This document shows positions 10,081 to 64,000 of a stretch of 64,000 nt of DNA, piece after piece; position 1 is the stretch's first letter, and every line of letters begins with the position of its first letter. The DNA is from an uncultured Alphaproteobacteria bacterium (GTDB lineage Bacteria; Pseudomonadota; Alphaproteobacteria; RF32; CAG-239). Below the pieces are notes generated by a model. The model worked only from the letters and a program-made list of their open reading frames with translations, had not been told where the DNA came from and searched no databases. Position numbers and translations under genes: made by a program. Location of the stretch: the NCBI GenBank assembly GCA_944393215.1, contig CALXZL010000001.1, forward strand, positions 11,718-75,717, written 5' to 3'.

Positions 10081-10156
10081 TGGCAGGGGCAGTAAGATTC
10101 GAACTCACGACATTCGGTTTTGGAGACCGACGCTCTACCAACTGAGCTATACCCCT
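10081..10156 (-). tRNA. trnW: tRNA-Trp (anticodon CCA)
   Basis: 76-nt cloverleaf AGGGGTATAGCTCAGTTGGTAGAGCGTCGGTCTCCAAAACC…CTGCCCCTGCCA; anticodon loop CT-CCA-AA; encoded CCA. Confidence 0.9.
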
Positions 10157-10162
10157 ATCAAA
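10116..10162. repeat. attL-type 47-bp direct repeat (tRNA-Trp 5' half plus 7 nt)
   Basis: GGTTTTGGAGACCGACGCTCTACCAACTGAGCTATACCCCTATCAAA, identical to 19267..19313. Confidence 0.85.
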
Positions 10163-10521
10163 ACTTTCTTACCTATAACGTATTCTAAAATATAAATCAA
10201 GTATTTTTTTCTATCCCTTGCAAACAATGGTGTTTTGGCTCTTTGCAAACAAAATATATCTACTTAATTCCAAAGAAAAAACTTTACATTTTCAGATATT
10301 AAAATTTTTAATTTTACCTATCTATAATTTTTTCCCTTTTTTATCCCTAAACCTCCTAAAAATACAAAATTCATATATTTTTTTTGTTTTTTAAAGAACC
10401 TCATTTGCATCATTAGCCTCATTAGCTTTCGGGCTTTTTCCGCCCCACACCCAATTTTCGCGCCCTTTCCCCAAAATGTCCACACTTATTAGGCTAACTA
10501 TTTGAAATTGTGGATAGTTTT

Positions 10522-11154
10522 TCAATGGAGATTATTATCACTCTGTTTCTTTTTTAATTCAAAATTAAATATTTTAATCTCTTCATAGTATGGCAATACA
10601 TATAATAAAATCATTATTAAAATTAAATAGAGGTGAATGTTATTTAAATTTAAGATCTCCAAAACATCTAATACAAATATAATTGATAAAACTTCTAATA
10701 AGATATTAATTTTCTTCTTAAATTCATCTACTGTTTCTACCTTTTTTGTTTTTATTATTTCTGTCTTTGCTGAACGACTACGAACAATTTGATCTTGGTA
10801 GTTTAAATCAAAATTATCTTTTTTTGTACTTTCAGTTTCCGGATTTATTATTTTAAAAAAAGGTGAATTATCATTAGGAAAAACTAAATACCCAATAACA
10901 TCAGCATTTAACTTGCGAGCCTCTTGTAAAAATTTGCTTAATTGTTGCCTTCCCATGTCGACATTTCTTTTATTATTATTAGACTTTAATTCAAATAACT
11001 GCATTGGGGAATTTGTTTCTATATCAATTACCACAAGATCTGCTCTATATTTTCCCAATTTATATTCTGCAATCATACTATTCTCAGGATATCCATGCCT
11101 AATTAAATATTGCTTCAAATTTTCAATCAAATTTTTTTCAACAAGAAGGCTCAT
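10522..11154 (-). CDS. restriction-endonuclease-fold (HsdR N-terminal-like PD-(D/E)xK) protein with C-terminal transmembrane helix
   Basis: N-terminal …GYPENSMIAEYKLGKYRADLVVIDIETNSPMQLFELK (D…E.K motif; resembles the type I HsdR N-terminal domain); C-terminal strongly hydrophobic segment IIFVLDVLEILNLNNIHLYLILIMILLYVL. Confidence 0.5.
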   Translation of the reverse strand: MSLLVEKNLIENLKQYLIRHGYPENSMIAEYKLGKYRADLVVIDIETNSPMQLFELKSNNNKRNVDMGRQQLSKFLQEARKLNADVIGYLVFPNDNSPFFKIINPETESTKKDNFDLNYQDQIVRSRSAKTEIIKTKKVETVDEFKKKINILLEVLSIIFVLDVLEILNLNNIHLYLILIMILLYVLPYYEEIKIFNFELKKKQSDNNLH

Positions 11155-11169
11155 TTTTATTTCCTTTAT

Positions 11170-13182
11170 CTAATTCAATCCAAGAATCCTGAAAAATACT
11201 TCATTTTTCTTTCTTGCGTCATTAAACATCTTTTCATACGTAATAATTTCTAATGAAACTATACATCCTTCTAAAGGATGGTATTTAAAAAAGCCATCAC
11301 CATCTGGAGACTTTTGATAACCAGCAACATCTATTAAATCTGCCTCTATCTTAGGGGTTATATCTGTTACAATATATCCATATAAACGCGTAGAACCATT
11401 AATTTTTATTGGTCGTCCTCTAGAATCAATAGCATTTCCTGAAATTATTTCTTTCATATTTCTAATAATCTCTCGATGAGGATTATAATCCTCCGAAAAA
11501 TTATTCAATCCAGGCTTTTTAAACTCCACTACAGTTATAGAATTTTTGTACTGAAAATCATCCGTATATTTTAATGGTTTATTAAAAATTGTAATATCTG
11601 GTCTTCTTGAAGATGAAGCTTGTAATTCTTTATAATTTTTTATAAGTTCGTCAGAATACAAGGCTTCATGAAAGACTAACTTTTCATCCAACAACCAAAG
11701 ATTATTAGCCTCAAATTCAACAGAATTTGAATTAATTTTCATCGGAATAATAAGCTCATGCAGATAAGCTTCATCTAAAAATTTATTTTCTTCCTTATTA
11801 AATGATATTAGCTGTTCAAACACATCCAATAAAGCTTTTCTATGACAAATATAATTTGACAATTCACAAGTATTAATTCCACTCGATTTTGCTATATATT
11901 TTTTCATAGCATCATCATAAGTTTGTTTAGTCTTTTCATTTAATTTAGTAGATTTTTTTAGCTTATTTCTTAATGCCAACAATTCTTTTTCTTCTTGAAA
12001 CTTTAGATTATGAAGAAATAGCTCCATAGTCTGCATATTAGGATTATTAGGAAGTTTATCAAAAGGAAATTTTTTAGATTTTATACGCTCTATAAAAATT
12101 CTATATCCAGGCTTGTAATTATTTACATATTCAATTAATTTTTCTTTTTTCTTATCTGTAGACTTCTCTAAATAATCAGATAATTCGTTTTTGACTACAT
12201 CTAGACATTTTGCACGTATTTGTGAAAAAGATGGATTCGCTGAATCAAAAAAATCACCATTTTCATCATAATCTTCGGGAATGCTAAATTCCATTTGATT
12301 CGGTTGAATATTTTCATCAAGGTACAAACTGCTTACTATTAAATTATAGTAATAACTATCCTTATCGTCTTTAATTTTTCCATTTAATGTCTCAATATTT
12401 TTTCCAATATTTTCACTAATTATTACTCTGCGATTAGAAGTGTATGCAATTATATTTCTTGTTTCAGTTTCATATAATCTAATACTAATAGTATTAAAGC
12501 TAAAATCTCCTATTGTAAAATTCGATACTTTTTTATCTGATGTGTAGTATTTTTGATACAAATCATTAAGATTTAAACTTTCTTTATTATCTGAAATAGT
12601 AATTGTTGGACAATTGCTTCCCATAAAAAACAACAAACAATGCTCTATAATTAAATGAGCAATTTTAGATAACTCTTGAGGAAAAACTGCTTTATAGGGA
12701 TCTTGGATATTGTGTAAAGATATTACTGTTTTATTTTCACCAAAATTTACATCCTGCACAACTTCATCTAATTCATCCTTTGTTCGTAAAAAATCAAAAG
12801 ATATTTCTTTCTTGCCATTGTTATATATACTATCAACAGACACATGATTAAATACTTTCAACCATGAAAATCTTCCTAACCCTTTGCATCCCTTCGATAT
12901 TTTATGCGTACTATCAAATTTTTTAAAAGAACCAAAATTTTCTTCATTAAACCCTATACCGTTATCAATAATTTTAATGTTTTGAATTTTGGAGACAAAA
13001 TCGTTATTAAGAACTTCTTCTCGCTCGATAATAATATGAATGTATGGAGATTTATTATTCTTCATATCTTCAAGAGATTGAAGGGAATTAACAACAGCCT
13101 CAAACAAAGCATATATCCCTTTTGTTTTGGGCAAATATGTATTTCTTAACTTACCAGCTATATCACCATTAAAAGCAGACAT
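11170..13182 (-). CDS. GHKL-superfamily ATPase (HATPase_c-like) with possible C-terminal PD-(D/E)xK-like region
   Basis: N-terminal Bergerat-fold motifs (ALFEAVVNSLQ…, IKIIDNGIGFNEENF, GCKGLGRFSWLKVF); C-terminal RRPDITIFNK…ITVVEFKKPG resembles a D…E.K nuclease motif; 16 nt upstream of 10522..11154 on the same strand. Confidence 0.55.
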   Translation of the reverse strand: MSAFNGDIAGKLRNTYLPKTKGIYALFEAVVNSLQSLEDMKNNKSPYIHIIIEREEVLNNDFVSKIQNIKIIDNGIGFNEENFGSFKKFDSTHKISKGCKGLGRFSWLKVFNHVSVDSIYNNGKKEISFDFLRTKDELDEVVQDVNFGENKTVISLHNIQDPYKAVFPQELSKIAHLIIEHCLLFFMGSNCPTITISDNKESLNLNDLYQKYYTSDKKVSNFTIGDFSFNTISIRLYETETRNIIAYTSNRRVIISENIGKNIETLNGKIKDDKDSYYYNLIVSSLYLDENIQPNQMEFSIPEDYDENGDFFDSANPSFSQIRAKCLDVVKNELSDYLEKSTDKKKEKLIEYVNNYKPGYRIFIERIKSKKFPFDKLPNNPNMQTMELFLHNLKFQEEKELLALRNKLKKSTKLNEKTKQTYDDAMKKYIAKSSGINTCELSNYICHRKALLDVFEQLISFNKEENKFLDEAYLHELIIPMKINSNSVEFEANNLWLLDEKLVFHEALYSDELIKNYKELQASSSRRPDITIFNKPLKYTDDFQYKNSITVVEFKKPGLNNFSEDYNPHREIIRNMKEIISGNAIDSRGRPIKINGSTRLYGYIVTDITPKIEADLIDVAGYQKSPDGDGFFKYHPLEGCIVSLEIITYEKMFNDARKKNEVFFRILGLN

Positions 13183-13296: not shown

Positions 13297-13644
13297 CTAA
13301 ACCAACTCTAAAAGAGCTTCAATTTGTTTTTGGATAACTTGTAGGGTTTTATTGTCCTGTTTTTTAAGAATTTGAAGAATCTCTAAAATATTGTTGGCTA
13401 CTTCGTCTTCTGTTGGATTCTCTTGAGATTCTGAAAAAAGTTCTTCAATAGAAGTATTAAGTGCATTTGAAATTGATACCAGAGTCGAAATTTTAGGATC
13501 ACTTAAACCACGTTCAATATTAGAAATCGTGTTTATCATTTTACCAGAAGCCTCCGCAAAATCTTCTTGGCTCATTCCTTGTTGTTTTCTTAAATAGGCT
13601 ATTCGTCTGCCTAAATTTTTTAGCATTTGAGTTGTTTCATCCAT
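13297..13644 (-). CDS. XRE-family HTH transcriptional regulator
   Basis: LRKQQGMSQEDFAEASGKMINTISNIERG helix-turn-helix. Confidence 0.75.
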   Translation of the reverse strand: MDETTQMLKNLGRRIAYLRKQQGMSQEDFAEASGKMINTISNIERGLSDPKISTLVSISNALNTSIEELFSESQENPTEDEVANNILEILQILKKQDNKTLQVIQKQIEALLELV

Positions 13645-13790: not shown

Positions 13791-14738
13791 GTGGCTATGG
13801 AACAACCTAACATATTTGATTTTGCAACTAGCGAATTATCACAAGATGCTTTTATTTGTTACTTATTAGAATTTGGAAAAGAGAAGTATAAAGACATTTT
13901 TCCAAATGAATATGCAATTGCTCATTTATTTTTCGAAAAAAGTGGACTTACTCAAACAGAAGAACTTTCAGAAATAAAACAACAATACCATGGTATAGAC
14001 GTTTTAGTCATTACATCCAATTCTCTATTAATTATTGAAGATAAAACAAATACTTCAGAACATTCAGATCAGATTATTAGGTATGTAAAAACATTAAAAA
14101 AAGATAATTTATCAAAAGGCAGAAAGATTAAAGTCTGTTATTTAAAAACAAGTAATTATGTACGTGGATATACATCTTCAGATATTACACTACTACCTCA
14201 AGAAGATTGTATTTCTATCAACAGACAAAAGTTTATGGAAATATTGAATTACAAAAAAACAAACAATTTAATATTCCAAAGTTTTTATCTTCGACTTAAG
14301 TCAATGAATGAACTTGCAAAATCTTGTGATACAAAAGACATTTTCAGTTGGAATAAAGAAAAATGGTTTGAATATCTCTTAAATCAATTTGCAGAATATC
14401 CAAAATACTATGACATTGCTTGGGTAAACAATCCCAAAGGTGGATTTTATGGTTGTTGGTTTGATTTTCTTAGTATTGGAAAAGTTGATATATATAAACA
14501 AATAGAAATTTATTTTTCAGAGAATAAAACATCAAACATAAAACTATGCAGAAAACTATTAAGCTCCAGTAGAGATGAGACCATAAAAAACAAAGAATTA
14601 ATAACAAAGTTACAAAACCAATTGCTAGACAAAGGATACACTCCTTCTAATAGAACCGGAAAGACAACAACATATGCTTATAAAAGAGCATCTTGTTTAG
14701 ATGATGTTTTACAGTTTATACAAGAAAATTTGGAATAA
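13791..14738 (+). CDS. PD-(D/E)xK nuclease family protein (PDDEXK_4-like)
   Basis: N-terminal NIFDF…SELSQDAFICYLL and HGIDVLVITSNSLLIIEDKTN…QIIRY match the pattern of the PF14281-type restriction-endonuclease-like family; transcribed divergently from the XRE gene. Confidence 0.5.
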   Translation: MAMEQPNIFDFATSELSQDAFICYLLEFGKEKYKDIFPNEYAIAHLFFEKSGLTQTEELSEIKQQYHGIDVLVITSNSLLIIEDKTNTSEHSDQIIRYVKTLKKDNLSKGRKIKVCYLKTSNYVRGYTSSDITLLPQEDCISINRQKFMEILNYKKTNNLIFQSFYLRLKSMNELAKSCDTKDIFSWNKEKWFEYLLNQFAEYPKYYDIAWVNNPKGGFYGCWFDFLSIGKVDIYKQIEIYFSENKTSNIKLCRKLLSSSRDETIKNKELITKLQNQLLDKGYTPSNRTGKTTTYAYKRASCLDDVLQFIQENLE

Positions 14739-14758
14739 CAATCAAGAAAGGACGGAAT

Positions 14759-15013
14759 ATGATATATAATTTATCTGATGCCTCTGGCAATATTCAAACT
14801 TACCCCCACATTATCCAAGGTACAGTAACTATTATCAGAGAACCCATTAAAGGAACTATGCTTTTTCCAACAGGTTCTTCGGGAATGGAATTATTAAAAT
14901 GTGATGAGAAATTTATTTATATGAGAGATCCTTATAATTCATCTAATGTAAATGTGTTTGACGAAGATGGATATAAGGTTAGAGATATTTCAATTAATGA
15001 ATTAAACTTTTAA
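14759..15013 (+). CDS. small hypothetical protein
   Basis: 84-aa ORF 20 nt downstream of 13791..14738. Confidence 0.35.
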   Translation: MIYNLSDASGNIQTYPHIIQGTVTIIREPIKGTMLFPTGSSGMELLKCDEKFIYMRDPYNSSNVNVFDEDGYKVRDISINELNF

Positions 15014-15059: not shown

Positions 15060-17399
15060 CTACAAATTCTCTAAATTATAAACTTCAGGATTTACATAAT
15101 AAGTTTTACGCCTTCTACCCGCGGTTTTCCCTGCTCTTGAAGATCCGCAACTTAACCAACCTAAATCCATAAGTTTATTTGCAGCAATTTGAACTTGTTC
15201 TTTCCTTCGCAAGTTTGCAATATTTCCATTATTATATATATCTCGTAGGGTAAAGCTACATAGCTTATTTTCAATAATGTATCTTGCCAAAGAACGAGCC
15301 TCAATATTTTGAGATGGACTGTAATACATATTATATACCCGTTCACACATTGGCGTTATGTATGTATCATATAATTCAATTGCTGTTTTAATCGCCTCAA
15401 GACTTATCTCTGTTGGTTCGCTATATTCTGAACTTGCCCACCATAACATCTCAAACAGTAAAGCAAAACGCAATACATAACCTTGACCTTTACCAAGGAA
15501 ATATTTCAAAATACTTTCCTCACTCTGTGATTTATTTAAATGTGCTAGATACCAAGTATTAAAAAGCTGTTGAGCCTCAATACTTAACAACAAGCATTTC
15601 TTCTGTTTCTCAGCATTATCTACATATGGATTTAATAGAGAATCAAGTTTTTCGAATGCTGGCAATACTTTTTCCGGTAAAGCAATATCTTGAGGAATAG
15701 AAGCCGGTTTAGGCTCCGGATAGACCCATAGAAAGCGCGCAAGGAAGCCGTCCCCGCGGTCAGAAAGAACCGTGTCAATGAGCCTTTGAGGCTGTATAGT
15801 CCCGAAAACAGAAACAAGCAAATTTTGAATTTCTTGCCGTTCATCATCAAATTTAACACGATTACAAACAAATTTATTGCCATTAAACGCTTCAAGCCAA
15901 AACCCCTTTTCTGAACTACCACTATTATAGCGATTCATTCCACTAATCCAAGCGGATAATTCATCTCGAAAGAGTATTGCCCCTTTAATATTTCTTTCCA
16001 TATCTGAGGTTAATGCCTCTTGAGTGGTATCTCCATAAACAAAACGATATGTTTGAGGTTTTGGAGGCACAACAGCGGAAGCTGGAAATTTAGGTGCTAA
16101 ATCAGGAGCTTCTTTTACTTTATCCTCCCACTCTTTTCTTCTTTGTTTTGCAACTTCCTTTTCAGTCTTCCACTTTGCTAATTTATCAGAATAATCTTCC
16201 TTTCGAGCTTCCTCAATTTTGTTAAGAATTTTCCGAATTGGTGTTGTTGCTGGTGTTTTACCTGAACTTGGCTCTCCAATTACACCAATCCACAAACAAC
16301 ATTTTTCTTCCCAAGTTCCCCAAGGCGAGATACTTCGAGACAAACCAATAACACCTGCGGCACCAGCAAGCAAAGAAAATGCAACATAATCAATCGGAGC
16401 ATTCGTATTTTCTGCCGTTTGAACAACCCAATCTTCTAAATTTTTAAATATTTTTGTATTTAATATTGGAGCAGGTAAAAGGATTTTTGTTTTCAAAATA
16501 TCCATATCCGGCTCAATATCATCCCAATCGTTACAATGTTCTTCAACAAATTTTAAGGCGTTATCATAAGTTTTTAACGATTCTTCTTTTGATAAACCTG
16601 AACGAATAGCCGCACCAATAACACGCTCTTTTATATCTGTCATATTTGCTTTTTCATGTTTAGCACGCTTTATAAGGCTGATAGAACGCCTATAAAGCGT
16701 ATCGTTGCGTTGTCCTTGCGGTGCGTTTGAAATATCTTCCAGAAAGCCTGAAATAGGCAAAGTCTGTTTTTCCTCATTCGTAAGCAAAGAAAGCAACCAA
16801 CTTGGAGCCTGTGGGAAATCCTGATTTATATCAAAATTTTCCCAAGTATATTGATGTCCATTTTCATGAATGGAAGGAGGTGCAACGACATAACCACCAT
16901 TAGCTCTTATATCAATATGATCGGCAATTTTGCTAACACTCGACTTAATGTCTATATTTTCCGGCATTTTGAAATATAAATGTTTTCCCTTTCCTGTTAT
17001 AACAGTTGGTACATCTAATTTTCCATAAAGACGTTCTAAACACTCTAAAGATTGAAGACCTTGTTCGCCATCAACATCCAAAACAAAGATATTATTAAGC
17101 TGTCCGGTTGGAATACCGATATTACAATCAAAGAATTTTTTATTCCATTCTTGTAAAATGGCTGTATCAACAGTTGCCGACTTAAAGCCTCCTACGCAAA
17201 GAGGTGATTTTCCTTGCTTTTTTACAGGAAATACTTTAATATTTCTGCTTGTATAAAACATAGCAACATCATAGAAATTGCGAGTTTCCAAGATTTTGTT
17301 TATGTTTTGAGAAGATATTGCAGTATCTTCTCGTTTTGGGAGTGAAGAGGCTTGCGCCTCTCTCTCCTGTTTTTCAATCAAAATGTTTTTTAGTTTCAT
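15060..17399 (-). CDS. bifunctional primase-polymerase (Prim-Pol) / P-loop helicase-like replication protein
   Basis: N-terminal Prim-Pol motifs (VLDVDGEQG…, GKGKHLYF, IDIRANGGYVVAPPSIH); central P-loop GEPSSGKT (DUF3987/D5-like NTPase), 779 aa. Confidence 0.7.
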   Translation of the reverse strand: MKLKNILIEKQEREAQASSLPKREDTAISSQNINKILETRNFYDVAMFYTSRNIKVFPVKKQGKSPLCVGGFKSATVDTAILQEWNKKFFDCNIGIPTGQLNNIFVLDVDGEQGLQSLECLERLYGKLDVPTVITGKGKHLYFKMPENIDIKSSVSKIADHIDIRANGGYVVAPPSIHENGHQYTWENFDINQDFPQAPSWLLSLLTNEEKQTLPISGFLEDISNAPQGQRNDTLYRRSISLIKRAKHEKANMTDIKERVIGAAIRSGLSKEESLKTYDNALKFVEEHCNDWDDIEPDMDILKTKILLPAPILNTKIFKNLEDWVVQTAENTNAPIDYVAFSLLAGAAGVIGLSRSISPWGTWEEKCCLWIGVIGEPSSGKTPATTPIRKILNKIEEARKEDYSDKLAKWKTEKEVAKQRRKEWEDKVKEAPDLAPKFPASAVVPPKPQTYRFVYGDTTQEALTSDMERNIKGAILFRDELSAWISGMNRYNSGSSEKGFWLEAFNGNKFVCNRVKFDDERQEIQNLLVSVFGTIQPQRLIDTVLSDRGDGFLARFLWVYPEPKPASIPQDIALPEKVLPAFEKLDSLLNPYVDNAEKQKKCLLLSIEAQQLFNTWYLAHLNKSQSEESILKYFLGKGQGYVLRFALLFEMLWWASSEYSEPTEISLEAIKTAIELYDTYITPMCERVYNMYYSPSQNIEARSLARYIIENKLCSFTLRDIYNNGNIANLRRKEQVQIAANKLMDLGWLSCGSSRAGKTAGRRRKTYYVNPEVYNLENL

Positions 17400-17960: not shown

Positions 17961-19091
17961 TTAGCTGTTTAACTTAGAAACTGCTTCGCGTAATGTTTCA
18001 TTTGCCAAATGCGAGTAACGTTGTGTCATGGCAATATCAGAATGCCCTAACAATTCTTTCACTTCATAAAGGGAAACTCGTTTTTGAACTAAACGACTGG
18101 CAAAAGTATGCCGCAAAGAATGAAAAACTACCTTTTGTCGACGGTCGATAATACCATCATTTAAACCTAAAGTTTTAACTACTCTCTCAAAAGTTCTTGA
18201 AACATGCTCAATCTTTCCACCGTTTTTACTTTGGAATACAAATTCATTTCCCTCGCCCGGCTTTAATTTTGATATTTCCTCAAACACACGATTTGTCATA
18301 TAGGCAAAACGATTTTTGCCATTTTTGGTATCACGCAAAAATAACATTTTTTCTTCAAGGCTAACATCTGCCCAAGTTAACTTAAAAATCTCTCCAGCTC
18401 TTAATCCGCAATCTGCAGAAATTAATGCCATTAAATAAACGGAGTAGCTATGTTCCTTGAGTTTTTCAAAAAGATTATTTAACTCTTCTTCGGAAAGAAA
18501 TCTCATACGACGATTATCTTCTCTTTTTAACTCGTCGAATTTTGCTGCCGGATTATCGCCTGCAAAAAGCTCATTTCTTATAGCAAAATTAAAAACTTGC
18601 CGAATTAAAGCTATAGCATAAAATTTTGAACGATTAGATAAATGCTTTTTTTCCATAGGCTGTAGTAACCTTATGAGGCTAACGCGGCTAATGAGGTTTA
18701 ATCTAACACCACCTAAAAACGGCTTAATCCACTTTTTATATAAATGGACTTCCCTATCATAAGTTGATTTTTTATCTTTATTTTGAATATGAGGCTGATA
18801 ATATTCTTCAAATAATTCTGAAAATGTTATATTTGCTGCCTCATTAGCTATTTTTTCTTGTTCGCGTTGTTCGTTCTTTTCTCTCAAAGAAAAAGCCCTA
18901 CCAGCCTTTATATCTCTCTTAAGTTCGCCTAAAATTTCATATGCTTGAGCCGCTGTAAATCCTTCTGATTTATAGCCTATACTTTCTTCATATTGTTTAC
19001 CATTGCGAGTGTAGCGAACAGAAAAATAAACATCTTTTCTGCCATTGCGAATACATTCTTTAGAACGTACACCAGGAAAACTCTTTACCAT
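17961..19091 (-). CDS. int: tyrosine-type site-specific integrase
   Basis: C-terminal catalytic HSLRHTFASRL…LLGHSDIAMTQRYSHL (R-H-R-Y motifs), 376 aa, next to the attR repeat. Confidence 0.9.
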   Translation of the reverse strand: MVKSFPGVRSKECIRNGRKDVYFSVRYTRNGKQYEESIGYKSEGFTAAQAYEILGELKRDIKAGRAFSLREKNEQREQEKIANEAANITFSELFEEYYQPHIQNKDKKSTYDREVHLYKKWIKPFLGGVRLNLISRVSLIRLLQPMEKKHLSNRSKFYAIALIRQVFNFAIRNELFAGDNPAAKFDELKREDNRRMRFLSEEELNNLFEKLKEHSYSVYLMALISADCGLRAGEIFKLTWADVSLEEKMLFLRDTKNGKNRFAYMTNRVFEEISKLKPGEGNEFVFQSKNGGKIEHVSRTFERVVKTLGLNDGIIDRRQKVVFHSLRHTFASRLVQKRVSLYEVKELLGHSDIAMTQRYSHLANETLREAVSKLNS

Positions 19092-19266
19092 TTTACAAAA
19101 TTCCTTCTTATCGGTTTCTTTACCCTAATTATTACCTAAAGAGACGGAAAAAACGAGTACACCTAAGTACGCTAAGGTACGCCAAGCAAAAAAAACTTTT
19201 ACGCTTGAATGTATTGAAAACTAACTAAAATGTAGGGAAATTAAATACTTTGAAAAATTAATCTGG

Positions 19267-19313
19267 GGTTTTGGAGACCGACGCTCTACCAACTGAGCTA
19301 TACCCCTATCAAA
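19267..19313. repeat. attR-type 47-bp direct repeat (displaced tRNA-Trp 5' half)
   Basis: Identical to 10116..10162; lacks the tRNA 3' half. Confidence 0.85.
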
Positions 19314-19415
19314 TCTTGCGTAATATTAGATACACAACTATTCACTATAAATCAAGTCTTTTTTTATTATTCAGCAAAAAAGTTCATAAAAAAAGCGGAC
19401 TTTAATCCGCCTTTA

Positions 19416-59413: not shown

Positions 59414-60724
59414 ATGAAAAGACTTGCTTTTGAACAATTATTAGAATGGAAGAACAAACAAAACAGAAAACCTTTAATTGTCCAAGGAGCAAGACAGGTT
59501 GGCAAAACTTGGTTAATGAAAGAATTTGGAAGACAACATTATTCCAAAGTTGCATACATCAGCTTTGATGCCAACAAAACAGCTAATGATATTTTTGAAG
59601 CTGATTATAATATTTCAAATATCATACAAGCATTAAATATTTTATCAGGAGTTGATATTACTCCTCAGGATACCTTAATTATATTTGATGAAATCCAAGA
59701 GTCAGAAAGAGCTTTGAATTCCTTAAAATTCTTCAAAGAAAATGCTCCTGAATATCACATTATGGCAGCAGGAAGTTTATTAGGTGTGGCTGTTAAACAA
59801 AAAAATATGTCTTTTCCTGTTGGGCAAGTGGAATTTCTAAATCTTTATCCTTTAAGTTTTATAGAATTTCTATCTGCTATTGGAGAAGATAAACTTTGTA
59901 ACATTATATGTGAAAGGAACATACTACTCAGTAAAGCATTTAAAGATACATTCATATCTTTATTAAAATTATATATGTTTATTGGAGGAATGCCTGAAGT
60001 TGTATATAGTTATACTCAAAACAAAAATCTTGATATTGTCAGAGAAATACAAAATCAAATACTTTTAGGCTATCAAAATGATTTTTCCAAATACACTGAA
60101 AGTTTTAATGTTGCCAGAATCAATGCTGTTTGGCATTCTCTACCCTCCCAATTAGCAAAAGAAAATAAAAAATTTGCTTATAATCAAATAGCCCCAAGTG
60201 CAAGAGCAAGGGAATATGAAATGGCAATTGAATGGCTAATTCTTTGTGGTTTGGTATATAAAATAAATAGAATTTCTAAACCTGATGTGCCTTTGTCTGC
60301 TTATGCAGATTCTTCAGCATTTAAACTTTATATGATAGATACTGGATTATTAGGAGCTCTATCTTCTTTAGATGCCAAAGCAATTATTGAGGGTAATAAA
60401 ATTTTTGAAGAGTTCAAGGGGGCTTTAACAGAACAATTTGTATTACAAGAACTTATTTTGCAAAAAAACTTACCCATTGCTTATTGGAGCTCAGAAAGTA
60501 GTCAGAATGAAATAGATTTTGTAATTCAATATAATAATCAAATCATTCCTATTGAAGTAAAATCATCTATAAATTTAAAAGCAAAAAGTTTAAGTGCATA
60601 CAGAGAAAAATATAAACAAGAAATAGCTATTAGGACATCCTTAGCTGACTTTGAAATTAATCAAGGTCTGCATAATATCCCCTTATATTTGGTAGATAAT
60701 CTTCTAAATTTTATTGAAGAGTAA
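59414..60724 (+). CDS. AAA+ ATPase, DUF4143 family
   Basis: Walker A GARQVGKT, Walker B IIFDEIQ, 436 aa with the family-typical C-terminal DUF4143 region. Confidence 0.65.
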   Translation: MKRLAFEQLLEWKNKQNRKPLIVQGARQVGKTWLMKEFGRQHYSKVAYISFDANKTANDIFEADYNISNIIQALNILSGVDITPQDTLIIFDEIQESERALNSLKFFKENAPEYHIMAAGSLLGVAVKQKNMSFPVGQVEFLNLYPLSFIEFLSAIGEDKLCNIICERNILLSKAFKDTFISLLKLYMFIGGMPEVVYSYTQNKNLDIVREIQNQILLGYQNDFSKYTESFNVARINAVWHSLPSQLAKENKKFAYNQIAPSARAREYEMAIEWLILCGLVYKINRISKPDVPLSAYADSSAFKLYMIDTGLLGALSSLDAKAIIEGNKIFEEFKGALTEQFVLQELILQKNLPIAYWSSESSQNEIDFVIQYNNQIIPIEVKSSINLKAKSLSAYREKYKQEIAIRTSLADFEINQGLHNIPLYLVDNLLNFIEE

Positions 60725-60962: not shown

Positions 60963-61514
60963 TTAATTTTTCAGATATGAATACAAAGTAGGTCTGGATA
61001 TGTGATACTTTCTTGCCAGTTCAGAGAGGGAAACTTTTTGAGATTTTGCCAATTCTTTCAACTCAGCAATCTCTTGGGGGGACAATTTATGTTTTCCACC
61101 CTTATATTTGCCTTTCATTTTAGCCAAAGCAATTCCTTCTCTTTGTCTTTCAAGAATTAAACTTCTCTCAAGCTCAGCAACTGCCCCAAGCATTGTCATC
61201 ATCAATTTTTGATATGGGTCATTTTTACCTGCTTCAAAAGTCAGATTTTCCTTATGGAATTTTATAGTGACTCCTTGGGATGTGATTTCCTCTACCAAAT
61301 TCAGTAAATCTCTAGTATTCCTAGCTAATCTATCCATAGAATGCACATTGATGATGTCTCCAGCTCTGATAATAGAGAGCAATAATTCCAGTTGAGGCCT
61401 ATTTCTGTCCTTACCTGACAATTTATCCTCAAACTCCCTATCACATTTTATGTTGAGTAATTGTCTTTCTGTGCTTTGGTCTATTGTTGAAACTCTCTTG
61501 TAATTGAAAATCAT
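60963..61514 (-). CDS. serine recombinase (resolvase/invertase family)
   Basis: N-terminal catalytic YKRVSTIDQSTERQL with Ser nucleophile, …DRLARN…, C-terminal HTH LSELARKYHISRPTLYSYL; 183 aa. Confidence 0.85.
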   Translation of the reverse strand: MIFNYKRVSTIDQSTERQLLNIKCDREFEDKLSGKDRNRPQLELLLSIIRAGDIINVHSMDRLARNTRDLLNLVEEITSQGVTIKFHKENLTFEAGKNDPYQKLMMTMLGAVAELERSLILERQREGIALAKMKGKYKGGKHKLSPQEIAELKELAKSQKVSLSELARKYHISRPTLYSYLKN

Positions 61515-62095: not shown

Positions 62096-64000
62096 TTAAA
62101 TGTAATCACTGACAATATCCCTAAATCTATTAAAGAAATTAATTATTTTTTCTAATACTGTTGTCCTCTTAATTCCTCTATCATTATTTTTGGTAAATAA
62201 AGAAACTGGGGGTAAAATTTTATTAATTGCTGTACCTGTTGTGGGTACAAAACCATCTCTAAAGGCATTTTCAATAAATTTATAGGTTTCCTCTTTATTT
62301 AATTTTTCCTCTTCTATAATTTTATCCAATTCAACTAATTTCTGTTGTCCCACATAGGTTTTCCAATCTTTATCAACATCTGAGCTTGGAGTTAGAGATG
62401 CTATAAAATTCATAATCAAATCTTTTTTACTTCTCAATTCCATACTAGAATCAACAGATTTCTCAATATTCACAATGATTTCTTTATCTTTTTGCTCACC
62501 AGATTGATATTTTTTAATAAGCATCAAAATATAGTCAATATTGATTTCAACTTGTTTTATTAATTCCATTTCAAAAACAATATCATCATTAATATTATCT
62601 TTGTCCTTTTTAGTTTTGTTTCTCCATTCTTCATATAATGAAATATACATACTATGGTAATCCTGAACATCTCTATCAGTTAAGATGCCTTTCCCCATAA
62701 ATTCATCAAATGAAGATAAAATATTTTTAACTCTTAAAATTCCACCATATAGTTTGATAAAGTCTTTTTGGGCTTGCTCACTCACTATCACTTCACCAAT
62801 AGGGTATTGTTGTTGCAATTCTTCTATTAATTGAGTGTATGGTCTAACAAACTTTCCTTTTTCATCATAATAACCATCACTATAATATTCCTTAAATGTT
62901 TTCAGTAAAACAATTCCACCTGCTTCTTTATTTCCAAACAGGGCTATGCTTTTATTGGTGGCATCTTCCAAATTTCTAAAGCAAACAATATTTCCATATG
63001 TTTTTACAGAATTAAGGATTCTGTTTGTTCTTGAATATGCCTGCAACAAACCTTGTGATTGGAGATTTTTATCCACCCATAATGTATTCAATGTTGTTGC
63101 ATCAAACCCTGTCAGGAACATATTAACCACAATAAGCAGGTCAATTTCCCTATTTTTCATCCTTAATGATACATCTTTATAATAATTTTGGAACTTATCA
63201 CTTGATGTATCATAGGTTGTTCCAAACATTTTATTATAGTCAGCAATAGCTTTTTCCAAAAACTCTCTGCTACTTGCATCTAAACTGTCAGTATTTTCAG
63301 GATTTTCATCATCAAAGCAATCAACACTGTTATCATCCCCATTGGGAGCATAGCTATAGATAGTAGCAATTTTTAATTTCTTTTCTGGATGTTCCTTCAT
63401 TTGTTTTTGGAATTCTGTATAATATAGCTTTGCCATATCAATACTAGCAACACAGAATATAGAATTAAAACCTGTTAATCTAACTTTTGCCTTAATTTCA
63501 TCCAAGGCTTTTTGATTTTTAGCAGATGCCATTTCTTTAATATTCTGGAGTTTGCTAAATTCATAAGACCTATCATTTCTTTTTGTTTTTTGATTAAAGT
63601 GCTCCAAAATATATTCAACCACTCTGGAAATTCTCTCTGGAGCTTGCAGAGCTTTTTCTCTATCTATATTCCAAACTTTGCTGTCAGCAATATTTTCTTG
63701 CTCCTTCATTGTACTGATATAATCAATTCTAAAAGGAAGAACATTTTTGTCAGCAATTGCATCCACAATAGTGTAAGTATGTAATTTTTCTCCAAAGGCT
63801 TGCTCTGTTGTTTTCAGCTTTGGATTTCCTCCCTGATAAGCATTTTCTGCAAATATGGGAGTTCCTGTAAACCCAAATAAATGATATTTCTTAAATGCTT
63901 TGGTAATATAGATATGTTGCTCACCAAATTGGCTTCTGTGGCATTCATCAAAAATCAATACCAAATGTTGCTTATATATAGGATGTTCTTTATTTTTTTT
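62096..64000 (-). CDS. hsdR: type I restriction enzyme R subunit, C-terminal part (N-terminus lies beyond the window edge)
   Basis: Helicase motif II DECHR, motif III GFTGTP, motif VI QAYSRTNR; the ORF is open to the window end. Confidence 0.8.
   Translation of the reverse strand, partial: KKNKEHPIYKQHLVLIFDECHRSQFGEQHIYITKAFKKYHLFGFTGTPIFAENAYQGGNPKLKTTEQAFGEKLHTYTIVDAIADKNVLPFRIDYISTMKEQENIADSKVWNIDREKALQAPERISRVVEYILEHFNQKTKRNDRSYEFSKLQNIKEMASAKNQKALDEIKAKVRLTGFNSIFCVASIDMAKLYYTEFQKQMKEHPEKKLKIATIYSYAPNGDDNSVDCFDDENPENTDSLDASSREFLEKAIADYNKMFGTTYDTSSDKFQNYYKDVSLRMKNREIDLLIVVNMFLTGFDATTLNTLWVDKNLQSQGLLQAYSRTNRILNSVKTYGNIVCFRNLEDATNKSIALFGNKEAGGIVLLKTFKEYYSDGYYDEKGKFVRPYTQLIEELQQQYPIGEVIVSEQAQKDFIKLYGGILRVKNILSSFDEFMGKGILTDRDVQDYHSMYISLYEEWRNKTKKDKDNINDDIVFEMELIKQVEINIDYILMLIKKYQSGEQKDKEIIVNIEKSVDSSMELRSKKDLIMNFIASLTPSSDVDKDWKTYVGQQKLVELDKIIEEEKLNKEETYKFIENAFRDGFVPTTGTAINKILPPVSLFTKNNDRGIKRTTVLEKIINFFNRFRDIVSDYI

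What the first reader, a model, noticed from the sequence alone, without database searches (positions are those of the whole stretch)
10522..13182. Candidate undescribed two-gene defence module on the tRNA-Trp island: GHKL ATPase (with nuclease-like C-terminus) plus membrane-anchored HsdR-N-like PD-(D/E)xK protein
Two co-directional genes, 16 nt apart, occupy the cargo end of a P4-like integrative element. The 670-aa product opens with a clear Bergerat-fold ATPase (IIDNGIGFNEENF, GLGRFSWLKVF) and ends with RRPDITIFNK…VVEFKKPG, which reads as a D…E.K nuclease core. The 210-aa partner has an HsdR-N-terminal-type restriction-endonuclease fold (RADLVVIDIETNSPMQLFELK) followed by a single strongly hydrophobic helix. 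GHKL ATPases paired with nucleases occur in several anti-phage and anti-plasmid systems (prokaryotic MORC-like, Paris-like, others), and P4-type satellites are known defence hotspots. I do not recognise this particular ATPase plus TM-anchored nuclease pairing as a described system.
Basis: partly seen in the sequence, partly recalled or inferred. Interest (0 to 1): 0.85.

Follow-up and report, generated by a model that had tools for sequence, protein, structure and literature searches.

The report
Known Shedu-type nuclease on tRNA island
The large gene is a new member of an already validated single-gene anti-phage system (the GHKL-ATPase form of Shedu, like Vibrio cholerae VcSduA), while the small gene next to it is a fixed end gene of the mobile island and not a dedicated partner, so this is not an undescribed two-gene system.

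Summary
Both ORFs exist as described: 670 aa at 11170..13182(-) and 210 aa at 10522..11154(-), 15 nt apart.

**No conserved partner.** In 79 of 80 diverse loci that encode a relative, the 210-aa protein is absent and no other neighbour is conserved.

**The 210-aa protein.** It is the last gene of a 9.15-kb integrase/PrimPol island. The same gene follows different cargo (DUF488 + 273 aa) in sister islands, and it occurs alone elsewhere. It belongs to an uncharacterised family of membrane-anchored, PD-(D/E)xK-like proteins.

**Verdict.** The defence reading is supported. "Undescribed" and "two-gene module" are not. It is a new member of a known kind, of low interest.

The parts
11170..13182 (-). 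SduA-like protein of 670 aa (Shedu type I-D / paraMORC3). Domains: GHKL ATPase about aa 1-165, Hsp90/MORC-like middle domain about aa 166-310, helical linker about aa 315-470, PD-(D/E)xK nuclease about aa 470-670.
10522..11154 (-). P210: a 210-aa protein with an N-terminal PD-(D/E)xK-like domain (D39, E55, K57), two C-terminal hydrophobic segments and a conserved tail (P188...E191-I-K194...E199). It is the terminal backbone gene of the island and is co-transcribed with the SduA-like gene.
   Evidence: It holds the same position in sister islands that carry either cargo.
13297..13644 (-). HTH_3 (Cro/C1-type) protein of 115 aa, conserved upstream boundary of the cargo slot. Probable transcriptional regulator of the cargo operon.
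   Evidence: Pfam HTH_3 E 1.4e-16. PADLOC HTH_VI, capH and R-M control-protein models. Present in every sister island.
10116..10171 (.). att direct-repeat copy that overlaps the 5' half of the intact tRNA-Trp (island end distal to int).
   Evidence: 56 nt, 95% identical to 19267-19322. tRNA-Trp lies at 10081..10156(-).
19267..19322 (.). Second att direct-repeat copy, next to int. It is part of a degenerate tRNA-like remnant at 19233-19307.
   Evidence: Rfam tRNA 32.1 bits at 19233-19307(-).
10300..10521 (-). Conserved non-coding segment after the P210 stop, with adjacent copies of CTAATGAGGC at 10407-10425. Probable integrase arm-type sites of attP.
   Evidence: Conserved in 6 islands. The motif is present in 8 island loci. 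5 of the 9 window matches lie at the two island ends, and 0 of 100 shuffles reach 9.
17961..19091 (-). Tyrosine integrase of the island.
   Evidence: Pfam Phage_integrase E 1.1e-31.
15060..17399 (-). Prim-Pol / DUF3987 replication protein of the island backbone.
   Evidence: Pfam Prim-Pol E 9.5e-39 and DUF3987 E 4.6e-60.
13791..15013 (+). Second variable slot, on the opposite strand: a PDDEXK_4 protein of 315 aa plus an 84-aa ORF.
   Evidence: Pfam PDDEXK_4 E 1.6e-6. PADLOC PDC-S26 E 2.4e-6. Present in L091/L100 but replaced in L001, L081 and L092.

Best explanation
**The 670-aa gene.** It is a stand-alone anti-phage nuclease of the GHKL-ATPase class of Shedu (type I-D, earlier called paraMORC3), the family of V. 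cholerae VcSduA.

*Proposed mechanism, inferred from the family.* The N-terminal GHKL domains bind ATP and dimerise. Together with the Hsp90/MORC-like middle domains they form a clamp. ATP binding and hydrolysis, with E28 as catalytic base, gate the C-terminal PD-(D/E)xK nuclease (E500, D529, E553, K555). The nuclease cuts invading DNA. Immunity is direct rather than abortive.

**Its location.** The gene occupies an exchangeable cargo slot of a 9.15-kb island built from an integrase and a PrimPol/DUF3987 gene and inserted in tRNA-Trp. The slot lies between a conserved HTH regulator gene and a conserved terminal gene.

**The 210-aa gene.** That terminal gene is P210, a membrane-anchored PD-(D/E)xK-like protein. 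It belongs to the island backbone, next to the attP arm. It is co-transcribed with whatever cargo lies upstream. It is not a specific partner of the ATPase, and its own role is unknown.
For: **Homology to VcSduA (shown here).**
- BLASTP against P0308 gives 31% identity over 660 aa, E 3e-95.
- P0308 is VcSduA. It lies directly after two GmrSD_N genes (GrwAB) and before a transposase, an integrase and rpoD/dnaG, which is the VSP-II WASA layout.
- Read from the upstream ATG, P0308 has E27 and K557 exactly as published (PMC12137116). These align with E28 and K555 here.

**Architecture.**
- Bergerat and E-D-ExK residues are invariant in 23 relatives.
- The N-terminal and middle domains match Hsp90/TRAP1/SMCHD1/MORC3/MLH1 at E 1e-12 to 1e-10.

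**Stand-alone gene.**
- At least 556 candidate stretches in the species-representative genome collection (bacteria and archaea among the 80 kept loci) encode a relative.
- No neighbour is conserved in 80 loci.
- Neighbours include Type I/ISP R-M, AAA_21, DUF3800 and UvrD genes.
- This agrees with Iyer et al. 2008.

**From the literature.** VcSduA alone protects E. coli and V. cholerae, and E27A and K557A abolish protection.

**P210 as island backbone.**
- HTH-SduA-P210 occurs in the window, L001, L091, L092, L102 and L104.
- HTH-DUF488-273aa-P210 occurs in L081, L100 and L101, including islands at tRNA-His.
- The conserved attP-arm-like DNA starts right after the P210 stop.
Against: - No experiment was done on this protein.
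- Identity to VcSduA is only 31%.
- Pfam DUF4263 and the PADLOC v2 models do not hit it. They do not hit VcSduA either.
- The AF2 model of the nuclease domain is of middling confidence: pLDDT 72, with the stretch holding D529 below 50.
- Foldseek on that domain gave only a weak McrC hit.
- The 15-nt gap and the adjacency, conserved down to 48% P210 identity, leave open a lineage-specific functional link between the two genes.
- The clamp-and-gate mechanism is inferred. It has not been demonstrated even for VcSduA.
Confidence: 0.82

Rival explanations
1. One reading: a genuine two-gene system. The GHKL-nuclease is sensor or motor, and the membrane-anchored P210 nuclease is an obligatory partner or effector.
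For: The two genes are co-directional, 15 nt apart, with no terminator-like site in the gap. Adjacency is kept in at least 6 island variants, with ATPase identity down to 70% and P210 identity down to 48%.
Against: - P210 is absent from 79 of 80 loci that encode a relative, by BLASTP and by a family HMM at E<=10.
- It is absent beside a 49%-identical ATPase.
- It is retained behind DUF488+273aa cargo in the same island family.
- It is solitary elsewhere.
- VcSduA works alone (PMC12137116).
Confidence: 0.08
2. P210 is itself an independent, undescribed single-gene function of the island. It could be a membrane-anchored nuclease that excludes incoming DNA, or a toxin-like stabiliser. It would merely share a transcript with the hotspot cargo.
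For: - The family is wide: 367 clusters at E<=1e-3, all about 200-225 aa, with D39, D44, F54 and E55 near-invariant and a conserved two-segment hydrophobic tail.
- Distant members sit among transposases or next to a DpnII-MboI-like gene.
- It is always kept at the island end.
Against: - No model of a defence system hits it consistently.
- A close chromosomal subgroup has lost the ExK motif.
- Some members sit in ordinary housekeeping neighbourhoods (TolB, PBP1, MutS).
- No relative was found in viral contigs.
- No structure was predicted.
Confidence: 0.3
3. The 670-aa protein is an accessory of a restriction-modification system or a MutL-like repair factor, not an autonomous defence gene. This is the older paraMORC reading.
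For: Relatives are often embedded in Type I R-M operons, with HsdM/S upstream and HsdR adjacent, for example L041, L063 and L077. Iyer et al. 2008 proposed R-M-linked roles.
Against: No methylase or helicase lies in this 9-kb island. Most relatives have no R-M neighbour. VcSduA defends alone.
Confidence: 0.04

Closest known systems
VcSduA of Vibrio cholerae WASA lineage (Shedu type I-D; Adams et al., Nat Microbiol 2025, PMC12137116)
   Same: It is collinear over the full length, with a GHKL ATPase, middle domain, helical linker and PD-(D/E)xK nuclease. Identity is 31% over 660 aa, E 3e-95. The catalytic Glu and Lys align (E27/E28, K557/K555). It is a stand-alone gene on a mobile island.
   Different: The sequence is divergent and comes from an uncultured, low-GC gut alphaproteobacterium. 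It is carried in a PrimPol/integrase island at tRNA-Trp rather than in VSP-II. It is followed by a co-transcribed 210-aa membrane protein that VcSduA lacks. Its activity is untested.
paraMORC3 family (Iyer, Abhiman and Aravind 2008, PMC2292703)
   Same: It has GHKL plus an S5-like module plus a C-terminal restriction-endonuclease-fold domain with E-D-ExK. It is sporadically distributed, often stand-alone, and sometimes sits in R-M operons.
   Different: Nothing substantive. This is the same family under its older, purely computational name.
Canonical Shedu SduA (B. cereus 8ti8/8ti9; E. coli 8ps4)
   Different: The N-terminal sensor is a GHKL ATPase with a middle domain instead of the Shedu clamp domain. 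There is no detectable sequence similarity to DUF4263 by HMMER. A dimer rather than a tetramer is predicted for VcSduA (PMC12137116).
Prokaryotic MORC / other paraMORC systems with SF-II helicases, and Tiamat (TmtA)
   Same: They have a GHKL ATPase core and a defence-island context.
   Different: There is no linked helicase, methylase or HNH gene. The TmtA model gives no hit to this protein, and only one weak hit (E 0.0064) in 1 of 23 relatives.
Type IIG/IIS restriction enzyme N-terminal nuclease domains (BpuSI 3s1s), Tox-REase-9 and PDDEXK_9. This row concerns the 210-aa protein.
   Same: The motif register (R/E)AD(L/F)V(V/I)...(F/V)E(L/V)K is shared with BpuSI. Pfam hits are weak.
   Different: All hits are below curated thresholds. 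P210 is a 210-aa protein with a membrane anchor and a conserved C-terminal tail, which none of these families have.

Membership tests
Shedu type I-D / VcSduA-like (paraMORC3) | Full-length sequence homology to the validated VcSduA | tested here: met
   31% identity over 660 aa, E 3e-95. P0308 was identified as VcSduA by its GrwAB/VSP-II context and its E27/K557 numbering.
Shedu type I-D / VcSduA-like (paraMORC3) | N-terminal GHKL ATPase with intact Bergerat motifs, including the catalytic Glu | tested here: met
   E28, N32, D73xGxG77 and G101xG103 are invariant. HATPase_c or HATPase_c_3 hits in 19 and 13 of 23 relatives. Foldseek matches Hsp90/MORC3/MLH1 at E<=1e-10.
Shedu type I-D / VcSduA-like (paraMORC3) | GHKL-associated middle (S5/transducer-like) domain | tested here: met
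   Foldseek alignments of 370-480 columns span the N and middle domains of Hsp90/TRAP1, SMCHD1 and MORC3.
Shedu type I-D / VcSduA-like (paraMORC3) | C-terminal PD-(D/E)xK nuclease with E-D-ExK | tested here: met
   E500, D529, E553 and K555 are invariant.
Shedu type I-D / VcSduA-like (paraMORC3) | The nuclease domain is of the Shedu (DUF4263) type | tested here: inconclusive
Shedu type I-D / VcSduA-like (paraMORC3) | Acts as a single gene, with no conserved partner | tested here: met
   No conserved neighbour in 80 loci. P210 is found only in the sister island L001.
Shedu type I-D / VcSduA-like (paraMORC3) | Confers phage resistance that depends on the ATPase Glu and the nuclease Lys | not testable with these tools
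   Shown only for VcSduA (PMC12137116).
   They co-occur in 1 of 80 diverse loci and not beside the 49%-identical P0005. P210 also appears with other cargo or alone.
PD-(D/E)xK nuclease superfamily (for the 210-aa protein) | Core D...(D/E)xK motif in the right secondary-structure register, and a significant profile match | tested here: inconclusive
   D39 and E55 are at least 90% conserved and K57 is present in most members. The motif is lost in the subgroup P0140-P0148. Pfam and PDB profile hits are all below threshold: Tox-REase-9 E 4e-4, PDDEXK_9 best E 8.7e-4 (in 6 of 19 family members), BpuSI E 0.086. No structure was predicted.
P4-like satellite | Integrase plus alpha-type primase-helicase, and capsid-hijacking genes (psu, delta, sid), epsilon and cos | tested here: inconclusive
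   Integrase and Prim-Pol/DUF3987 are present. None of the remaining small ORFs gave a Pfam or PHROG match to satellite functions. Not every ORF was scanned against PHROGs, and 9.15 kb leaves little room for such genes.

The most novel reading that the evidence does not exclude
P210 defines an undescribed family of small membrane-anchored PD-(D/E)xK proteins (367 clusters). On this island family it would act as a generic downstream module for whatever defence cargo is inserted upstream (Shedu-type or DUF488-type). It might work as a membrane-tethered nuclease effector or exclusion factor, or as a defence gene in its own right.
Probability: 0.12. Interest if true: 0.5.

Novelty: new member of a known kind. 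Interest (0 to 1): 0.2.

Why it matters
The result removes a false "new system" from the list. The GHKL-nuclease is the known VcSduA/paraMORC3 class of Shedu.

It also shows that current HMM libraries (Pfam DUF4263, PADLOC v2, NCBIfam) miss this class entirely, including the validated VcSduA. Genome scans will therefore keep re-flagging it as novel.

Modest positive value remains:
- A divergent member sits in a clear exchangeable hotspot of a small integrase/PrimPol island in uncultured gut Alphaproteobacteria.
- An alternative cargo (DUF488 + 273 aa) and an uncharacterised, widespread 210-aa membrane nuclease-like family could both be tested cheaply.

Tried and rejected
**Family libraries.**
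- PADLOC v2, NCBIfam and PHROGs on both proteins gave nothing useful.
- PADLOC and Pfam on 23 ATPase relatives gave only HATPase hits and one weak TmtA hit.
- PADLOC on 34 P210 relatives gave only scattered weak nuclease-domain hits.

**Solved structures.**
- Sequence and profile searches of PDB for the ATPase gave no meaningful hit.

**Getting the VcSduA sequence.**
- Supplementary Table 7 of PMC12137116 is truncated in the held copy.
- No supplements are held for the Shedu preprint.
- The Iyer 2008 supplement is only a stub.
- I solved this by finding a family member with E27/K557 numbering (L049) and searching from it.

**Wider contexts for P210.**
- The search for related loci with the wide P210 alignments failed because no stretch was conserved enough.
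- With the narrow alignment it found only 5 metagenome loci and no viral ones.

**Readings rejected.**
- Tiamat, MORC+helicase R-M and MutL-like repair were rejected for lack of matching models or neighbours.
- A paralogue of P210 near the window's tRNA-Ser was looked for and not found.
Full report
**1. Observation**

The two ORFs are as described: 11170..13182(-) of 670 aa and 10522..11154(-) of 210 aa. They are separated by 15 nt that contain an AAGGAA ribosome-binding site. No terminator-like site lies in that gap.

Both lie inside a 9.15-kb element. The element is bracketed by a 56-nt direct repeat (10116-10171 and 19267-19322, 95% identical). The repeat covers the 5' half of tRNA-Trp (10081..10156, minus strand) plus its upstream flank. 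Rfam also sees the degenerate tRNA remnant at 19233-19307.

In transcription order on the minus strand, the element carries:
- a tyrosine integrase (17961..19091)
- a 140-aa ORF
- a Prim-Pol/DUF3987 protein (15060..17399)
- on the opposite strand, a PDDEXK_4 protein and an 84-aa ORF
- an HTH_3 protein (13297..13644)
- the two genes of the finding

**2. The 670-aa protein: architecture**

Curated libraries say almost nothing. Pfam gives sub-threshold HATPase_c_3 (E 2e-4), and PADLOC v2, NCBIfam and PHROGs give no useful hit.

The protein nevertheless belongs to a large family that is conserved over its full length.
- A word-indexed search found 281 relatives of 659-717 aa. Their only names are "ATP-binding protein" or "hypothetical".
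- A scan of one genome per species found at least 556 candidate stretches that encode a relative, with bacteria and archaea among the 80 loci kept.

In a 23-sequence alignment reaching 29% identity, two sets of residues are invariant:
- Bergerat residues: E28, N32, D73, G75, G77, G101, G103, R104.
- A complete E-D-ExK nuclease signature: D499/E500, D529, E553, K555.

The AF2 model (pLDDT 76) matches Hsp90/TRAP1, SMCHD1, MORC3 and MLH1 over 370-480 columns. This corresponds to a GHKL domain plus its middle domain.

**3. The 670-aa protein: identity**

The literature already describes this architecture.
- Iyer, Abhiman and Aravind (2008, PMC2292703) defined paraMORC3 as GHKL+S5 with a C-terminal restriction-endonuclease-fold domain bearing E-D-ExK. 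They noted that it often stands alone.
- Gu et al. (bioRxiv 10.1101/2023.08.10.552793) placed GHKL-containing proteins in Shedu type 1D.
- Adams et al. (2025, PMC12137116) showed that V. cholerae VcSduA alone protects E. coli and V. cholerae. They also showed that E27A and K557A abolish protection.

To test homology directly I needed the VcSduA sequence, which the held supplement lacks. I recovered it in four steps.
- Among my 80 loci, the Aliagarivorans protein (L049) has exactly the E27/K557 numbering.
- Searching from it returned a V. cholerae protein, P0308. It is 91% identical to L049, and UniRef names it a DUF4263 domain-containing protein.
- The P0308 locus reads: two GmrSD_N genes of 603 and 821 aa (GrwAB), then P0308, then a transposase, an integrase and rpoD/dnaG. 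That is the WASA variant of VSP-II.
- Read from the in-frame upstream ATG, P0308 has E27 and K557.

BLASTP of the window protein against P0308 gives 31% identity over 660 aa, E 3e-95. E28 aligns with E27 and K555 with K557. VcSduA itself gets no DUF4263 or PADLOC hit. The silence of those libraries on the window protein is therefore uninformative.

**4. Is there a partner?**

*Around the ATPase family.* I clustered all ORFs of the 80 loci.
- No neighbour family is shared by more than 8 loci.
- Adjacent genes include Type I and ISP restriction-modification subunits, AAA_21, DUF3800, UvrD-like helicases and transposases. This is a defence-island setting with no fixed partner.
- The 210-aa protein is found only in L001, a sister island with an 84%-identical ATPase. 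This holds by BLASTP and by an HMM of the whole P210 family at E<=10.
- A 49%-identical ATPase (P0005) has no such neighbour.

*Around P210.* Its relatives show three patterns.
- HTH-SduA-P210 recurs in islands of the same family: L001, L091, L092, L102, L104.
- In L081, L100 and L101 the same backbone (PrimPol, HTH, P210) carries DUF488 plus a 273-aa gene in place of the ATPase. L100 and L101 sit next to tRNA-His instead of tRNA-Trp.
- More distant P210 relatives (38-50% identity) are solitary. They lie beside tRNA-His and an HNH gene, between TolB/DUF308 and a HAD gene, next to PBP1, or next to tRNA-Ser and MutS.

*The island end.* The roughly 200 nt after the P210 stop are more conserved than the genes themselves. 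They hold adjacent copies of CTAATGAGGC, and the motif recurs inside the 5' part of int. This is what integrase arm-type sites look like.

P210 is therefore the terminal backbone gene of the island, next to attP. The ATPase sits in an exchangeable slot between the HTH gene and P210.

**5. What P210 is**

A full HMMER search of 1.84 billion representatives with the family profile gives 367 clusters at E<=1e-3, and 200 at E<=1e-10. Nearly all are 200-225 aa and match end to end.

Across 34 diverse members:
- D39, D44, F54 and E55 are at least 90% conserved.
- K57 is present in most members.
- Two hydrophobic segments and a tail motif P-[FY]-x3-I-K-x2-G-x-E-[FY]-E are conserved.

The closest chromosomal subgroup (P0140-P0148) has lost the ExK motif.

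Profile hits are weak but point one way: Tox-REase-9, PDDEXK_9 and the BpuSI nuclease domain, with the motif in register. No defence model hits the family consistently. Its function remains open.

**6. Mechanism**

*Shown here:* homology to VcSduA, intact catalytic residues, the domain order, and the stand-alone distribution.

*Taken from the literature:* the single gene suffices for defence, both activities are needed, and protection holds at all tested multiplicities of infection (direct immunity).

*Inferred:*
- ATP-driven dimerisation of the GHKL domains forms a clamp with the middle domains.
- That clamp gates the Shedu-type nuclease against invading DNA.
- The upstream HTH protein, which resembles CapH and R-M control proteins in PADLOC, regulates the cargo operon.

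**7. Verdict**

The defence interpretation of the large gene is right. The system is neither undescribed nor a two-gene module. It is a new, divergent member of a known kind, in an exchangeable slot of a mobile island. The residual novelty lies in the uncharacterised P210 family and in the alternative cargo of the island slots.

Noticed in passing
window 13791-15013 (+): The second variable slot of the island holds a PDDEXK_4 protein of 315 aa (weak PADLOC PDC-S26 hits, E 2.4e-6) plus an 84-aa ORF. The pair recurs in L091 and L100 together with an RNase_T gene, and is replaced by other genes in L001, L081 and L092. It may be a second defence cargo.
   Followed up: partly
L081 4260-5960; L100 5260-6960: In sister islands the slot that holds the Shedu-type gene here is filled by a DUF488 protein (292 aa) plus an unannotated 273-aa protein. 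This is a candidate alternative defence cargo.
   Followed up: no
window 10300-10521 and 18670-18847: About 200 nt after the P210 stop are conserved across all sister islands and contain adjacent copies of CTAATGAGGC. The same motif occurs three times inside the 5' part of the integrase gene. These are probably arm-type integrase-binding sites of attP. A G+C-rich patch (10430-10490) stands out in this A+T-rich DNA.
   Followed up: partly
window 19233-19307 (-): This is a degenerate tRNA (Rfam 32 bits). Its 5' half is identical to tRNA-Trp. The island duplicates the 5' half and upstream flank of the tRNA, not the usual 3' end. As a result, int lies next to the remnant and the intact tRNA lies at the far end.
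   Followed up: partly
L100/L101 7978-8054; L094 2979-3054: The same island backbone (PrimPol, HTH, P210, conserved arm DNA) is also found beside tRNA-His. In L094 a 50%-identical P210 relative sits beside tRNA-His with an HNH gene upstream. The element family uses more than one tRNA site.
   Followed up: partly
proteins P0140-P0148 (e.g. L084, L086, L097): A chromosomal subgroup of the P210 family (38-40% identity) has replaced the ExK motif (FELK becomes FAYQ, FVYH or FSYL). It keeps D39 and the membrane tail, which suggests a non-catalytic role there.
   Followed up: partly
proteins P0348-P0402: V. cholerae, V. parahaemolyticus, V. alginolyticus, Aeromonas, Proteus and Morganella carry a second, 672-aa SduA-like group that is 65% identical to the L049 query (Aliagarivorans; 91% identical to VcSduA). 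It is often on contigs of about 90-100 kb. This could be a mobile element such as an ICE.
   Followed up: no
window 62096-63964 (-) and 59414-60724 (+): An ORF that reads like the C-terminal two thirds of a Type I restriction R subunit, and a 436-aa ATPase-like ORF, lie near a resolvase-like gene (60963-61514). They may form another defence or mobile region at the window's end.
   Followed up: no
The experimentally validated VcSduA gets no hit from Pfam DUF4263, Pfam HATPase models or PADLOC v2. Standard annotation therefore cannot currently recognise this class of Shedu.
   Followed up: yes
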